A stretch of 51,953 nt of DNA, filler included, from Sphacelaria rigidula (GCA_964200075.2; 3 parts of 3 records of this genome joined end to end with filler, not necessarily neighbours in it); one strand, 5' to 3'. Positions 2,975 through 34,709 are shown, counted from the first letter of the whole stretch. Notes: generated by a model not told the origin, from the sequence alone. Numbers and translations: made by a program.

Positions 2975-4186
2975 GTCTACTTCTCATGTATGAAAAAACA
3001 TGTCATCAGAAAAACCCTTTTTCAACAGCACGTTTGTCACCGGAATTTTTCAAAGTAGCCCTGCTTGCGTGATCGACGCTCTATCAACATTGAAAACGCA
3101 GTGTTCCTCGTTTTCTATAAGGTTTGAGGGCATAATTTCAAATTCTGGGGCGCGCGAGAGAGACGCAGCACTCTGCCATCCTGTCGTGGTGTACGGTCCG
3201 TACTGACTGCCTGTACTGCTGTGATACATTACCTGAGCAATACATGGTGGGCTGCGTGACGCAAGACCATCAATAAGAGCACCGCATTGCTGTACCAACT
3301 GACTGTAGAAGTGACGGTTGTGCTTTTTCACTGCATGGGTAATACTTGACGGAAGGTACAGCACAGACAACAGTACACACAACAGTGCTGTATTGCATGC
3401 ATCGGCTGTAGTACTACAACAGTAGCACTATTCGTGGTCTTGTGTGTACTGTCAGTACGGTCCTGTAGTTACAAGGCTTGGGTGCGTAGGCAGTCTGTGC
3501 TGCAAAGCGACGTCTGTTTTCAACACGCTGTATGCACAGACCTGAACTGAGCTGCAAGTTCGCTGCACTATTGTACTCGGTTGTATGGGCAGCGCGGACA
3601 ACAGTACAGACACTACTGTCGTGTTGTACACGTTGGATGTACTGCATTAGTAGCACTGCCTATCTTATAGTCTTGTGTGTACCGTCAGTCCGGCCCTGTC
3701 TCTGCAAGGCTAGGGTGCGTGCTGTTCGCAACACGCTGCGTGCACAGACCTGAACTCAGCTACAATATTGTACGGACGGAATACAGCACAGACTATCCTG
3801 TCTGTATAGCAGTCGTCACTTGACCCTGCCCTCTGCTGTTCTCATGGGGTAAAGGGCCACCACGCTACTGGCAAGCGAAGCACAATGATGTATCATGCTG
3901 AATGCCCGCGAGCACCAACAATAGCAGTTGTAGTGATGGCAACCAAGCCATCACAGGTGCTGTCGTGGGCTGTAAGGTGCGTTCAAACGCTTTTTCGATG
4001 ACATTTCTCGATAGCCCAAGGTAATCGGATAATCCTGATTTTCTGATAACTTTGGGCTATCGGAAAATGTTATGAGAAAAAAATATATCAGAAAACGCGT
4101 TTTCTGATCACATGATTAGTGGGTTTTTGGTCATTTATCATAAAACGCGTTTTCTAGTGGAGTTTTCTCATGGATGAGAAGTAGCC
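2975..4186 (+). mobile_element. PIF/Harbinger-like non-autonomous element, copy 2 (direct repeat of 623-1820)
   Basis: Colinear with copy 1 over its full length (e.g. tgctgtaccaactgactgtagaagtgacggttgtgctttttcactgcatgg; ccaagccatcacaggtgctgtcgtgggctgtaaggtg). Ends are GTCTACTTCTCAT and ATGAGAAGTAGCC. Confidence 0.8.
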
Positions 4187-5540: not shown

Positions 5541-6510
5541 GGCTTCTTCTCATGTGTAAAAAATAACATGATGAAGAAGCCGTTTGCTGACAATCGGCCA
5601 TAAACCCACTTGTGATGTGATGACAAAACGCGTGTTTTCATAAAAACAAAATTCTGACAGCTATTTTCAATCGCTCAAAGTTATCAGGCGTCTCTGATAT
5701 CTATGTGCTACAGAAAAACGTTGTAAAAAAAGCATTCGAACTCCTTCTGCTCATCAACCCTAAATCCCTTCACACCCCAGAACAGCACCCATGCTGGCTT
5801 GGCGGCCATCACTGCGGCTGCTGCGGCTCGCCCCGGGCACTCAGCGTGGTACGTCTCGTCTCCCGGTGGCCCCTTACTTATCCCGTGAGGACAGCACAGG
5901 GCGGAGTCGATGGCGAGTACAGTATGTACGTAGTCCGCGCGAAGAGTACTTGTAGCACAGTTTAGCTCTGTGCATGCACTGTGCTGCCAACGGCAGTCGC
6001 AGTGCAGTACAGACTGTCGATTCAAGCAAGTCTTGCAGAGAGAGGACCGCTTGTTCACTCAAGGGCTACAAGTAGTCCTACTAATGTACAACCGTCGATA
6101 CAGTGCGGCACTGTCTGTGCTGTCCGTGCTGTCCGTGCTGTCCGTGCTGTCCGTACAGGAAAGTACTACTTTGCAGTGGAAAAGCACAACCGTCAGTTCT
6201 AGACAGGGAAAACAGCAAGGCGGCGCGCTAAATGATGGCATTTCGTCATGCAGCCCACCATATATTGCTCACTCAATTTATTTTAGTAGTATAGTACGGC
6301 CGTACATCACGACACAACAGCAGAGCGCTGTCTCTCTCTCGCACACCCCAGAATTCGAAAATCACGCCCACACGCCTTGTAGAAGACGATGAACACTGAC
6401 TTTCGGATTTTGATAACCTCGATCACATGAGAATGGGCGCATGATAAACATTTGTTGGAAAACGTTAATTTTTTTTGCTTAATGGGTTTTTCGACACATA
6501 CGAAGTGGCC
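5541..6510 (-). mobile_element. PIF/Harbinger-like non-autonomous element, copy 3 (inverted, more diverged)
   Basis: Reverse-complement homology to copies 1 and 2 (5790-5920 vs 1450-1600; 6170-6430 vs 710-990). Ends are GGCTTCTTCTCATGT and ACATACGAAGTGGCC, flanked by TCA (5538-5540) and TCA (6511-6513). Confidence 0.75.
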
Positions 6511-6527
6511 TCACGGTTTGTTTTTCA

Positions 6528-8179
6528 CACACCCTGGACACTACAATATGTAATATATATTGCCCGTTCAGTATGTCGACGCGTCGGGTGGTCAATATAT
6601 ATTGGGCGAGCAACATGATGGCACGAGAGAGGGTCAATATATATTGTGCCATCAATGTCAAGGCCCGTGACATGCAATATACATCGACCGAACAATATAT
6701 CACGGCACGCGCCACCTCAATATATATTGGCCAAGTAATATGTTGGTGCAAGAAGGCACCAATATGTATTTGTCGAGTAATATATTGGCTGCCACACGAG
6801 GAAAATATATATTGATGATTCAATATACTCAACACCCGAAGCGTCAATATATATTGCCGCCCCAATGTGTCGTGCGTCAATGCGTCCAATATATATTGGG
6901 CGGACGATATACGAGGAAACCGACGGTCACAATACATACTGGTGTAGCAATATATTTTGATTTTCAACATGTAGATTGGAAAGTGTATTGGAATTAGTAT
7001 GGTGGGCAACTCTGTATTCGCGGGCGCCATTGAAAGATGTGTCACCAGATGCCGAAAACGCTCAAAATATTCCTCCGCAAGCGTGTTTAATATATATATA
7101 TATATAGGCTGCATAATAGCTATGCGATGAGCATGCGCAATATATATTGGAAAAACAATACTTTTTGCATGGTTTGCGTTCACTATGTATTATGACAACG
7201 AGTTTTATTCATTGAACAAAGGGAAGACAATATGCTACGCATCGCTTCGACTCAATATATATCGACACTTCAATACATACACAGCTGGCATGCACAATAT
7301 ATATTGAATGTTTTAGTCCCGGAGCAAATGCATGTCCAATATATATTGTCATCCATTACTTCATGATCATGACACGAGCAATATATGTTGTTGCTTCAAT
7401 GTCTCCGAGGACATCTCAACACAAAATATATATTGAAAGGACAATGCTTGAGCTGGCTCCAATACAAAGCATTGGTATCATATTGAAACAAATTGTCTTG
7501 TCCAGGGGTATCAAAAGGCTCATATCGACCCGCGTTTTCTGTCATCGTGATGTTTAGCCAAGATATATTAATTACATGCTGTGAAGGGGATGAACGGTCT
7601 CGCACCGGTGGCCAGATAGGTATTAGAAGACGTATATACCGCGTCGTCTCTTCTGTCACCATACTTTCTGACCAGTATATATATATATATGTACATATGT
7701 CAGCGCATTCGACAATTCTCCGTAGTGATGCACGCGAACTTTTGTGGCTCCCTTTAAATTTTTTACCAAGCTAGACGGGCTCCGGCATCCATCGCGTCTT
7801 GACCTTTCTTGAAGCGTACACCACAATTATGATATCCAATATATATATTGACCGGCCAATACATTGACATCCACGCAGACCCAATATATATTGACCGGTC
7901 AAAATATTTCGATCAATGCGACTCTAACATATGTTGGTCGCCCACGCTGCCCATTATATTTTGATAGGACAATATGTGTTCAAACCCCAGTACCACGGAT
8001 GATGTATATATATTGGGCGGGCAATATGTATGCAGTCCTACGACATCAATGTATATATTGTGCGCGTAATACGTTTGCAGTCCAAGGGTACCAATATATA
8101 TTACGCCGGCGATATATCGCGAAATTCCAATATGATCGACCAGTACGTGTTGGAAACATATTGTAATGTCCAGGGTGTG
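6528..8179. mobile_element. Non-coding TIR element (CAC termini) filled with a phased ~42-bp CAATATATATTG array
   Basis: 24-bp TIRs CACACCCTGGACACTACAATATGT and ACATATTGTAATGTCCAGGGTGTG (1 mismatch). More than 20 copies of CAATATATATTG or close variants lie inside. No clean TSD. Confidence 0.85.
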
Positions 8180-8529
8180 ATATTTTACAAGAAATCCCTG
8201 AAAAAAATACGAGAGCAGGGAAATTTTACGAGATGCGCGCTCCCGGCTCGTATATTTCAGACAGGTACGAGCCGAGATCGAGTTGTATTTTTCTCTCGTA
8301 GTTTTCAACCAAGACACGCCGAGACTACCAACGCCCGCCAGCGCTGAAGACGTTTGTGCCATTTTCCGTTACTGCGGGGCTCTCCTGGCGGCAATGTTGA
8401 ACATCCCCAGCGCCGTTCACAAACTAGAAAAGACTCCGCTTCGCCATCCCTGCGCACGGTGAATGGCGTCAGGGGTTGATGATCTGTTCTTATCGACCGT
8501 GCTTTCGAAACCCTGCAACACCGACAGTA

Positions 8530-9000
8530 CAGTGGTGTCTGTGCTGCCTCATGCAGTACAATGTGTGTGTCGGCTGTAGTTAGACTAACGCGGACAACGT
8601 GAGAGATGTGGACAACGTGCGATGCCGACAGTACTAGACAGTACTATACTGTCTATACTACCGCATTCCTCAGTAGAACAAATTTCAGTTTGCACCCATT
8701 AATATACAATGGCTAAACTGAAAATGATTTGGACAACGTGCAGTCTAGAGAGTATTCAACAGCAGGGTGCAGATGTCAGTTTGCACCCAGTAATGTACAA
8801 CGGCTGCACTAAATATAATGAAGAGAGCGTTCAGCACAGACAGTACTAGGCAGTACGGTTCTCCCTGTACTGCCCCATACGGGAGAATAGGATTGAAATG
8901 TCAGTTTGCGGACGGAAACATACAACGGCTGCACTCATAATGGTATGGAGAAGTGCAGCACAGGCCGTACTAGATAGTGCACCACTGGCCCCGGTGAAAT
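8530..9000 (+). repeat. Degenerate tandem repeat with ~90-125-bp units
   Basis: The core tcagtttgc...tacaa(t/c)ggct..act starts at 8685, 8776 and 8901, with recurring ggacaacgtg and (c/a)gtactag(a/g)(c/t)agt blocks. Confidence 0.65.
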
Positions 9001-34609: not shown

Positions 34610-34709
34610 NNNNNNNNNNNNNNNNNNNNNNNNNNNNNNNNNNNNNNNNNNNNTTAATTAATTAANNNNNNNNNNNNNNNNNNNNNNNNNNNNNNNNNNN
34701 NNNNNNNNN
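34610..34709. other. Assembly gap with artificial six-frame-stop linker
   Basis: 100-nt N run with TTAATTAATTAA at 34654-34665. Confidence 0.97.

What the first reader, a model, noticed from the sequence alone, without database searches (positions are those of the whole stretch)
6528..8179. TIR element carrying a strictly phased repeat-spacer array (CAATATATATTG-N6-CAATAT-N~18, period ~42 bp)
Seen: the palindrome CAATATATATTG or a close variant starts at 6551, 6593, 6635, 6675, 6718, 6760, 6803, 6845, 6887 and 6930 (steps of 40-43 bp). It recurs at 7138/7181, 7253/7295/7337/7379/7424, 7837/7882/7925 and 8004/8049/8092. A half-site CAATAT-like word follows at +18 in most units. The 6-nt and ~18-nt spacers differ between units (cccgtt, ggcgag, tgccat, accgaa, gccaag, gtcgag, atgatt, ccgccc, ggcgga) while their length is conserved. 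The +18 half-site lies on the same side in both halves of the element, so the array is directional, not a mirror pair of subterminal repeats. Inference: a neutrally decaying satellite would mutate evenly, so motif and spacing look constrained. 42 bp is about four helical turns, which suggests a phased protein-binding lattice (transposase or chromatin/centromere protein). More speculatively, it could be a CRISPR-like repeat-spacer cassette processed into small RNAs. No associated nuclease gene is visible in the window.
Basis: partly seen in the sequence, partly recalled or inferred. Interest (0 to 1): 0.8.

Follow-up and report, generated by a model that had tools for sequence, protein, structure and literature searches.

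The report
Transposon with phased binding-site repeats
This is one decaying copy of a very abundant, gene-less cut-and-paste transposon of a brown-alga-like genome, and its regular 42-base repeats are most likely docking sites for the transposase rather than anything CRISPR-like.

Summary
A 1,652-bp element (6528-8179) has 24-nt inverted ends. It carries about 24 units of CAATATATATTG-N6-CAATAT-N18. Of 22 neighbour spacings, 14 are 40-45 bp, against 1.3 expected. The half-site sits at exactly +18 in 17 of 23 units and always has the same polarity.

Contigs of four public runs show a high-copy family. About 7,700 contigs per DNA run lie on the element, and depth rises more than tenfold at 6528 and falls after 8183. 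The longest listed contigs are colinear with the window through the spacers at 83-90% identity, so spacers are inherited, not acquired.

Where the family majority differs from the window inside a motif, all 8 visible cases restore the motif. Spacers changed about as often. This copy therefore decays neutrally, and the constraint acted on the mobile lineage.

No transposase, nuclease or known RNA was found here.

Best reading: a non-autonomous TIR DNA transposon with phased subterminal binding sites for a transposase or accessory protein, as in CACTA/En-Spm. The superfamily is unresolved because no target-site duplication and no autonomous partner were found. The CRISPR-like reading is rejected. 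It is a tidy but ordinary new member of a known kind.

The parts
6528..8179 (+). Whole element: one copy of a high-copy non-autonomous TIR DNA transposon, 1,652 bp, GC 0.41
   Evidence: TIR pair. Summed contig depth rises more than tenfold at 6528 and falls after 8183, and loose ends pile up at 6528. No protein family in its open frames.
6528..6551 (+). Left terminal inverted repeat. It starts CACAC, and its inner part already holds a CAATAT half-site (6543-6548).
8156..8179 (-). Right terminal inverted repeat, ending GTGTG. In most other copies a palindrome lies 4 nt inside it. The window copy has diverged from the family here, from 8140 onward.
   Evidence: Loose ends at 8140 (45-46 contigs per run in X1 and X3).
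6551..6971 (+). Left array: 10 consecutive units (palindrome, N6, half-site, N18) at steps of 40-43 bp
7138..7465 (+). Middle array with the same polarity. Units at 7138, (7181 weak), 7253, 7295, 7337, 7379 and 7424.
7379..7510 (+). Internal, degenerate copy of the right end (two units plus a TIR-like word at 7488-7510). It is 75% identical to 8049-8179. The window lacks about 30 nt at 7502/7503 that other copies carry.
   Evidence: (pair I13), (tables 5c and 7).
7511..7836 (.). Internal stretch without units. It holds a (TA)n run at 7676-7698. A second (AT)n run lies at 7090-7106.
7837..8133 (+). Right array with the same polarity as the left. Units at 7837/7839, 7882, (7925 weak), 7952, 8004, 8049 and 8092. 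The last three still resemble each other through the spacers.
   Evidence: 45-bp period, 76% matches; units 8004 and 8049 share 71% spacer identity.

Best explanation
The stretch is one old, neutrally decaying copy of a very abundant non-autonomous cut-and-paste (class II, TIR) DNA transposon in a brown-alga-like genome.

The 42-bp units are subterminal and internal binding sites for a sequence-specific DNA-binding protein supplied in trans by an autonomous relative. That protein would be the transposase itself or an accessory protein like TnpA of En/Spm.

Proposed mechanism:
- A dimer sits on the palindrome, which is two inverted CAATAT half-sites.
- A further subunit sits on the half-site at +18.
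- Because 42 bp is four helical turns, all palindromes face one side of the helix, so bound proteins can contact each other.
- This loads the ends cooperatively and brings them together for cleavage at the CACAC...GTGTG termini.
- Only element lineages that keep motif and spacing are mobilised. That is why the motif and the spacer lengths persist while spacer letters drift.

What is shown: the TIRs, the phasing, the motif-against-spacer contrast, the high copy number with sharp borders, the colinear spacers among copies, the even decay of this copy, and the absence of a gene.

What is inferred: protein binding, its stoichiometry, cooperativity and mobilisation in trans.

The superfamily is open. 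I lean to the CACTA/EnSpm (CMC) group at about 45% and to hAT at about 20%, with the rest other or unknown.
For: Anatomy:
- TIR 24 nt, 96% complementary. The terminal word is unique to the two ends.
- Palindrome: 30 matches against 2.16 expected, 24 of them in the element.
- 14 of 22 spacings are 40-45 bp against a null of 1.3, with 0 of 10,000 trials reaching 14.
- The half-site is at +18 in 17 of 23 units.
- Motif columns hold 0.6-2.0 bits. Spacer columns hold mostly 0.0-0.2 bits.

Family:
- 7,727, 7,429 and 6,605 contigs of three DNA-type runs lie on the stretch at 80% likeness or more.
- In X1, summed depth is 1,584 just left of the element, 220,783 in the first array, 65,828 at the right end and 1,380 just beyond it. 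The single-copy flank contigs have depth 63-65.
- 76, 89 and 63 contigs leave the window exactly at 6528, with flank agreement of only 0.4.

Spacers are inherited:
- The longest listed contigs are colinear over 284-360 bp with 29-58 other letters (83-90% identity; table 8).
- Only 12 of 7,727 contigs fit two places.

Decay: of the 32 shown element positions where the family majority differs from the window, 19 lie in units. Eight are motif positions and all 8 restore the consensus. Eleven are spacer positions.

No gene: no Pfam family in the element's open frames.

Precedent:
- In En/Spm the TNPA protein recognises reiterated subterminal motifs that are cis-determinants of excision, and CACTA elements have asymmetric subterminal regions (PMC2613891, passages read).
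- The curated Ectocarpus library lists EnSpm families with CACCC/CACAG termini, 20-25 bp TIRs and 'complex palindromes in subtermini'. It also lists a hAT family with CACAC-GTGTG termini and 21-bp TIRs (PMC12477816, supplementary file 1, parts 2-3).
Against: - No target-site duplication is evident in this copy. The 2-bp flanks are CA/AT, the 3-bp flanks TCA/ATA, and the 8-bp flanks match at 5 of 8. The best alternative is 6 of 7 with the right border moved by 3 nt, in T-rich sequence.
- No autonomous partner or transposase could be sought, because no genome is held and the public collections gave nothing.
- Binding is inferred from conservation only.
- The units have the same polarity at both ends, rather than the mirror symmetry expected of simple end-binding sites. 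An array also lies in the middle of the element.
- The evidence on decay rests on the 40 best-supported of 458 difference rows that one search printed, not on all of them.
- The (AT)4 core of the palindrome could partly be kept by slippage rather than selection.
Confidence: 0.75

Rival explanations
1. The arrays are an internal tandem-repeat (mini-satellite) expansion that the transposon happens to carry. The units arose by duplication and have no binding role. The apparent motif conservation comes from AT-dinucleotide slippage and from choosing units by their motif.
For: - Spacers keep a faint common origin: 27.5% identity against 24.9%, adjacent units 34%, and the pair 8004/8049 71%.
- TRF finds a young 45-bp tandem at 8005-8101.
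- Single-unit deletions occur in other copies, such as joints that skip 41 or 46 bp (table 5).
- The palindrome core is (AT)4.
Against: - The +18 half-site was not used to pick units, yet it is kept in 17 of 23 units at one exact offset.
- The C and G that close the palindrome are kept in 17 and 21 of 24 units, while the spacers are near random.
- Neutral drift that left spacers at 27% identity would have erased an 18-nt motif.
- The half-site also lies inside the TIR itself.
Confidence: 0.12
2. The lattice is read by a host protein (a transcription factor, or a chromatin or centromere protein). The element spreads ready-made arrays of host binding sites, so the constraint is host-level regulation or chromatin organisation.
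For: - The strict four-turn phasing and the composite dimer-plus-monomer site would also suit a host factor.
- TEs are known carriers of factor sites (general knowledge).
- No call bears directly on this reading.
Against: - This copy loses motif letters as fast as spacer letters, so there is no host-level constraint on it.
- 63-89 contigs per DNA run leave the element at 6528 into unlike flanks, so the family sits at many different places, not at one class of locus.
- The motif extends into the TIR, which ties it to transposition.
Confidence: 0.06
3. It is a CRISPR-like repeat-spacer cassette that is transcribed and processed into small guide RNAs.
For: Short conserved repeats separated by length-conserved, sequence-variable spacers.
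Against: - Spacers are colinear and 83-90% identical between copies of a high-copy family, not acquired.
- Unit changes are internal (table 5).
- The 12-nt palindrome has no loop. In the fold it pairs with other units, equally on both strands (z -5.5 and -6.1), so it is not a repeat hairpin.
- No Rfam match.
- No nuclease family in the 108 open frames of 100 aa or more that were scanned, of 121 found.
- The genome is eukaryote-like.
- No array of this kind in viral or prokaryote collections by exact pattern (with a positive control).
Confidence: 0.01

Closest known systems
Subterminal repeat regions of CACTA (En/Spm, Tam1, Tgm) transposons, bound by TNPA-like proteins
   Same: - Short TIRs that start with CAC.
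- Several hundred bp of reiterated short motifs inside both ends, arranged asymmetrically.
- The motifs are cis-requirements recognised by an element-encoded DNA-binding protein.
- Non-autonomous derivatives keep them (PMC2613891, passages read).
   Different: - The terminus is CACAC, not CACTA.
- No 2-3 bp target-site duplication is seen.
- The motif is a 12-nt palindrome plus a half-site, in strict 42-bp phase and one polarity. En/Spm has 12-bp motifs in mixed orientation at irregular spacing; that detail is recalled, not checked here.
- No Tnp2-type transposase could be linked.
Brown-algal families in the curated Ectocarpus library: EnSpm-1/-N1..N3_Ec32 and hAT-2_Ec32
   Same: - The host group is probably the same.
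- EnSpm entries: CACCC/CACAG/CACCG termini, 20-25 bp TIRs and, for EnSpm-N1, 'complex palindromes in subtermini'.
- hAT-2_Ec32: CACAC-GTGTG termini and 21-bp TIRs (PMC12477816, supplementary file 1).
   Different: - Those non-autonomous EnSpm entries are 6.9-11.2 kb and have 2-bp duplications.
- hAT-2 is an 8.9-kb autonomous element.
- No entry is described as a 1.6-1.7 kb element with 42-bp units.
- The library's FASTA files could not be read, so sequence identity is untested.
hAT elements with subterminal transposase-binding repeats (Ac/Ds, Hermes)
   Same: Short TIRs, many short subterminal words needed for transposition, and abundant non-autonomous derivatives. PMC3260210 was seen only as an abstract in the listing. 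The Hermes octamer work is recalled and was not read here.
   Different: - hAT words are 5-8 nt, irregularly spaced and in both orientations.
- The 8-bp duplication is not confirmed here (5 of 8).
Iteron arrays of plasmid and viral replication origins
   Same: Directly repeated protein-binding words in helical phase, with variable spacers and one polarity (recalled).
   Different: - Here the array lies inside a TIR-bounded element that is present in very many copies at different insertion sites.
- No replication gene lies nearby.
- No viral relative was found.
CRISPR arrays
   Same: Repeats alternate with length-conserved, sequence-variable spacers.
   Different: - Spacers are inherited colinearly.
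- There is no repeat hairpin.
- There is no cas-like gene.
- The genome is eukaryote-like and the family is high-copy.

Membership tests
Class II TIR DNA transposon, non-autonomous | Terminal inverted repeats at both ends | tested here: met
   24 nt, 96% complementary. The word occurs only at the two ends.
Class II TIR DNA transposon, non-autonomous | Many copies that share the same borders at different genomic sites | tested here: met
   About 6,600-7,700 contigs per DNA run lie on it. Depth steps at 6528 and 8183. 63-89 contigs per run leave at 6528 with unlike flanks.
Class II TIR DNA transposon, non-autonomous | Target-site duplication flanking the element | tested here: inconclusive
   No exact duplication of 2-10 bp at the borders. 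An 8-bp window matches 5 of 8. A 7-bp window matches 6 of 7 only if the right border moves 3 nt, and the sequence there is T-rich. No empty site could be found.
Class II TIR DNA transposon, non-autonomous | No transposase gene of its own | tested here: met
   The element's open frames have no Pfam family. The 236-aa frame is an artefact of stop-free repeats.
Class II TIR DNA transposon, non-autonomous | An autonomous partner with the same ends | not testable with these tools
   No genome is held. The pattern scans of the public collections found no relative.
CACTA / EnSpm (CMC group) | Termini CACTA, or at least CAC...GTG | tested here: inconclusive
   The termini are CACAC...GTGTG. CAC is met, CACTA is not. 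Ectocarpus EnSpm entries also deviate (CACCC, CACAG).
CACTA / EnSpm (CMC group) | 2-4 bp target-site duplication | tested here: not met
   CA/AT, TCA/ATA and TTCA/ATAT in this single old copy. Other copies could not be examined.
CACTA / EnSpm (CMC group) | Reiterated subterminal motifs over hundreds of bp | tested here: met
   Arrays at 6551-6971 and 7837-8133, plus 7138-7465.
CACTA / EnSpm (CMC group) | Tnp2-type DDE transposase in the autonomous member | not testable with these tools
   No partner is available.
hAT | 8-bp target-site duplication | tested here: inconclusive
   GTTTTTCA against ATATTTTA, 5 of 8. My estimate of the chance probability is about 0.06 or more in T-rich sequence.
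hAT | Short TIRs (10-25 bp) and subterminal short repeats | tested here: met
   The same CACAC-GTGTG termini are listed for hAT-2_Ec32.
CRISPR-like array | Spacers acquired individually, so that they differ between otherwise related arrays, with gain at one end | tested here: not met
   The longest listed contigs of other copies are colinear through the spacers at 83-90% identity. Unit deletions are internal (tables 5 and 8).
CRISPR-like array | Associated nuclease or processing genes, and a structured repeat RNA | tested here: not met
   No such family in the 108 open frames scanned. No Rfam match. The fold shows inter-unit pairing only.
Satellite / tandem repeat | Head-to-tail units alike over their whole length | tested here: not met
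   Spacer identity is 27.5%. TRF reports only 2.2 copies, at 8005-8101.

The most novel reading that the evidence does not exclude
The element marks a brown-algal transposon group that has not been described. Its DNA-binding protein would not simply mark the ends. It would polymerise along one face of the DNA on a lattice of about two dozen composite sites (a dimer site plus a monomer site, four helical turns apart, one polarity across the whole element). That would be a filament-like mode of end recognition and synapsis, possibly belonging to a new superfamily, since neither the termini nor the flanks fit CACTA or hAT cleanly. The conserved AATATTY word that other copies show just outside 6528 would then be a further outer site or a strong palindromic target preference.
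Probability: 0.12. Interest if true: 0.55.

Novelty: new member of a known kind. Interest (0 to 1): 0.25.

Why it matters
This family may be one of the more abundant DNA transposons in a brown-alga-like genome, and it shows an unusually clean picture of what such elements must keep to stay mobile. A composite 18-nt recognition word and its exact spacing survive, while everything between drifts.

That makes it a good substrate for finding the matching transposase and testing cooperative, phase-dependent binding. It is also a useful marker for repeat annotation in brown algae, where many DNA families remain unclassified (51 'DNA/Unknown' families in Table 1 of PMC12477816).

It does not open a new kind of biology. 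The CRISPR-like and chromatin-lattice ideas find no support.

Tried and rejected
- **Metagenome scan with the TIR word:** 3 loci, all chance matches without any palindrome.
- **Viral scans:** the TIR word gave 0. One unit gave 6 AT-rich chance loci without arrays. The two-unit pattern gave 0.
- **Prokaryote genome scans:** the TIR word gave 0 and the two-unit pattern gave 0. The two-unit pattern does match the window twice, as a control.
- **Sequencing runs:** no RNA holder is listed. X6 is only guessed to be RNA, and its few contigs (175 laid) say nothing firm about transcription.
- **Rfam on 6000-8700:** 0 matches at E up to 1.
- **Pfam:** 108 of the 121 open frames of 100 aa or more were scanned. 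Five in the ATT run and eight overlapping the long ORF were left out. The only hits are the EsV-1-7 motif and one sub-threshold DUF4553.
- **Open frame 6479-7189 (-), 236 aa:** rejected as coding. It reads the palindrome as QYIL in shifting frames and has no family.
- **Empty-site approach:** the left flank 5948-6465 is another repeat, 70% identical to 678-1202 and 3069-3559. That repeat ends near the junction, and the right flank is not homologous to what follows in the other two copies (score 18 against null 17.6-18.1). The lenient alignment was therefore discarded.
- **TSD scan with shifted borders:** nothing convincing.
- **Papers:** the 12-nt palindrome is printed in 0 papers of the library. 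The terminal words hit only unrelated primer lists.
- **Ectocarpus TE paper supplements:** the readable ones do not contain the words. Its two FASTA libraries could not be read, so identity to a named family stays open.
- **Earlier findings of this scan:** none by place, by sequence or by words.
- **Spacer searches against viruses:** not run. 18-nt words would give chance hits, and colinearity already settles the question.

Full report
**What is there**

The window reads as eukaryotic DNA. It has no long prokaryote-type genes. One 796-codon open frame (12005-14395) carries the EsV-1-7 cysteine-rich motif (E 5e-17). From my own knowledge that motif is typical of brown algae and their viruses. 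The public runs that hold the stretch are labelled with one organism and with 'algae metagenome'.

Between 6528 and 8179 lies a 1,652-bp element bounded by 24-nt inverted repeats that are 96% complementary. The terminal word occurs only at these two places in the window, where chance gives none.

**The repeats**

- The palindrome CAATATATATTG (up to 2 mismatches) occurs 30 times in the window against 2.16 expected, with a largest shuffle of 9. Of these, 24 lie in 6551-8103, and all 9 exact copies lie inside the element.
The starts at 7181, 7925 and 8049 are weak.
- Of 22 neighbour spacings, 14 are 40-45 bp. Random placement gives 1.3 on average, and none of 10,000 trials reaches 14.
- A CAATAT half-site (up to 1 mismatch) stands at exactly +18 in 17 of 23 units. 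The mirror position is filled once. So the units have one polarity in the left (6551-6971), middle (7138-7465) and right (7837-8133) arrays.
- Column information over 24 units is 0.7-2.0 bits in the palindrome and 0.6-1.3 bits at +18 to +23. It is near zero in most spacer columns.
- The units make up about 61% of the element. Spacers are 52% GC and motifs 21% GC.
- The inner part of the TIR already contains a half-site.

**Are the spacers free?**

Not quite. Spacer identity at fixed register is 27.5%, against 24.9% for shuffled spacers, and 0 of 500 shuffles reach it. Adjacent units share 34%. The pairs 8004/8049, 7424/7952 and 7839/7882 share 71%, 62% and 58%. TRF still sees the last three units as a 45-bp tandem.

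The units therefore descend from one unit by old tandem duplication. Since then everything except the 18 motif letters and the spacing has drifted.

**The family**

No genome is held for this window. I therefore laid the contigs of four public runs on 6000-8700 at 80% likeness.

- 7,727, 7,429 and 6,605 contigs of the three DNA-type runs lie on it.
- In X1 the summed depth is 1,584 in the bin left of the element, 220,783 in the first array, 65,828 at the right end and 1,380 just beyond. The single-copy flank contigs have depth 63-65. The tool warns that summed depth is not a copy number, so I read it only as 'very many copies'.
- 76, 89 and 63 contigs leave the window sequence exactly at 6528, with flanks that agree at only 0.4. 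This confirms the left border as a mobile-element border.

The spacers are shared by the copies.

- The longest listed contigs run colinearly through up to 9 units (284-360 bp) with 29-58 other letters, which is 83-90% identity. Matching in the motifs alone would give about 50% by my estimate.
- Only 12 of 7,727 contigs fit two places of the stretch.
- Differences are mostly transitions: 161 of 261 places in X1.
- Some copies lack one unit (joints skipping 41 or 46 bp) or larger internal pieces (77-204 bp). These changes are internal and not at one end.

**Who is under constraint?**

One search printed the 40 best-supported of 458 positions where other contigs differ from the window.

- Of these, 32 lie in the element and 19 lie in units.
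- Eight are motif positions, and in all eight the family majority has the consensus motif letter where the window has lost it. For example, it turns CAACAT, CAATGT and CAATGC back into CAATAT.
- Eleven are spacer positions.
- Per base, that is about 1.9% in both classes.

So this copy has decayed evenly since insertion. The motif was kept only in the lineage that was still moving. The caveat is that only the printed rows could be counted.

**Other anatomy**

- The stretch 7379-7510 is a degenerate internal copy of the right end, 75% identical to 8049-8179. It includes a TIR-like word at 7488-7510.
- Other copies carry about 30 further letters at 7502/7503 that the window lacks. From 8140 on, most copies have a palindrome only 4 nt inside the right TIR (tables 5c and 7).
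- The element carries no gene. Its longest open frame (236 aa, minus strand) is the stop-free palindrome read as QYIL in shifting frames, and it has no family.
- As a single strand the left array folds better than shuffles on both strands (z -5.5 and -6.1), but only because palindromes of different units pair with each other. There is no hairpin within a repeat.
- Rfam finds nothing.

**What it is and how it most likely works**

The features are:
- short TIRs
- very many copies with the same borders
- no gene
- arrays of a short word reaching several hundred bp in from both ends
- that word also present in the TIR

These are the features of a non-autonomous cut-and-paste DNA transposon with subterminal binding sites.

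The known model is En/Spm. Its TNPA protein recognises reiterated subterminal motifs that are cis-determinants of excision, and the subterminal regions are asymmetric (PMC2613891, passages read).

I infer the following steps.
- An element-encoded protein supplied in trans binds the palindrome as a dimer and the +18 half-site as a further subunit.
- The 42-bp period, four turns, puts all dimers on one face of the helix.
- Contacts between the bound proteins then load and pair the ends for cleavage at CACAC...GTGTG.

The binding, its stoichiometry and its cooperativity are inferences. Nothing here tests them.

**Superfamily**

This is unresolved.

- The CAC terminus and the heavy subterminal arrays point to the CACTA/EnSpm (CMC) group.
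- The curated Ectocarpus library lists EnSpm families with CACCC/CACAG termini, 20-25 bp TIRs, 2-bp duplications and 'complex palindromes in subtermini'. It also lists a hAT family with exactly CACAC-GTGTG termini and 21-bp TIRs (PMC12477816, supplementary file 1, parts 2 and 3).
- In the window copy no duplication is visible: CA/AT, TCA/ATA, and 5 of 8 for 8 bp. The best alternative is 6 of 7 with a shifted border, in T-rich sequence.
- An attempt to find an empty site failed. The left flank is another repeat present three times in the window, but it ends near the junction, and the right flank is not homologous to what follows in the other copies.

**Rivals**

- A functionless mini-satellite inside the element explains the common origin of the units. 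It does not explain the survival of 18 specific letters and the exact +18 offset next to spacers at 27% identity.
- A host-factor lattice is not excluded, but this copy shows no host-level constraint.
- The CRISPR-like idea fails on inherited colinear spacers, on the absence of a repeat hairpin, RNA family or nuclease gene, and on the absence of such arrays in viral or prokaryote collections (with the control).

**Novelty and verdict**

The 12-nt palindrome is printed in none of the papers searched. No described Ectocarpus family matches by description, though the sequence libraries could not be read.

I rate it a new member of a known kind: a well-ordered example of subterminal transposase-binding repeats. 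The points that remain odd are:
- the single polarity at both ends
- the strict four-turn phase
- the array in the middle
- the conserved AATATTY word that other copies show just outside 6528

These leave a small chance (about 0.12) that the partner protein uses an unusual, filament-like mode of end recognition, or that it belongs to an undescribed group.

Noticed in passing
window 6518-6527, from the flanks of other copies (table 7): In three DNA-type runs, the consensus of 63-89 unlike flanks just left of 6528 ends in GG(A/G)AATATT(C/T), although the rest of each flank is noise. The window copy has TTTGTTTTTCA there. This is either a strong, near-palindromic target preference or an outer part of the terminus that this copy lacks.
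   Followed up: partly
window 5948-6465, 678-1202, 3069-3559: Another dispersed repeat lies directly left of the element. Its two other copies in the window are about 70% identical and in inverted orientation. Contig depth there is 25-50 times that of the single-copy contigs.
   Followed up: partly
window 12005-14395 (+): A 796-codon open frame carries two EsV-1-7 cysteine-rich motifs at its start (E 5e-17), followed by a long, internally repetitive Ser/Pro/Gly-rich body. The region is GC-rich (0.56-0.58).
   Followed up: no
window 15514-17249: A 1.7-kb (ATT)n microsatellite of about 578 copies with 78% matches. GC falls to 0.12.
   Followed up: no
window 17262-17361 and 34610-34709: At two places there are two 44-N runs separated by 12 letters. 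They are either assembly gaps or withheld stretches, and the identical layout is odd.
   Followed up: no
window 6111-6154: The 9-bp tandem CTGTCCGTG, 4.9 copies with 97% matches, in the flanking repeat.
   Followed up: no
window 7090-7106 and 7676-7698: Two (AT)n runs inside the element form a 21-nt inverted pair (pair I11) and bracket the middle array and the internal right-end copy. Contigs are cut there.
   Followed up: no
window 6546-6909 and 7274-7546 against 7547-8001: Summed contig depth is 2-4 times higher over the left array and the middle array with its internal right-end copy than over the segment that follows (table 2). This could mean that a shorter form of the family exists, or only that similar parts cross-map.
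   Followed up: no
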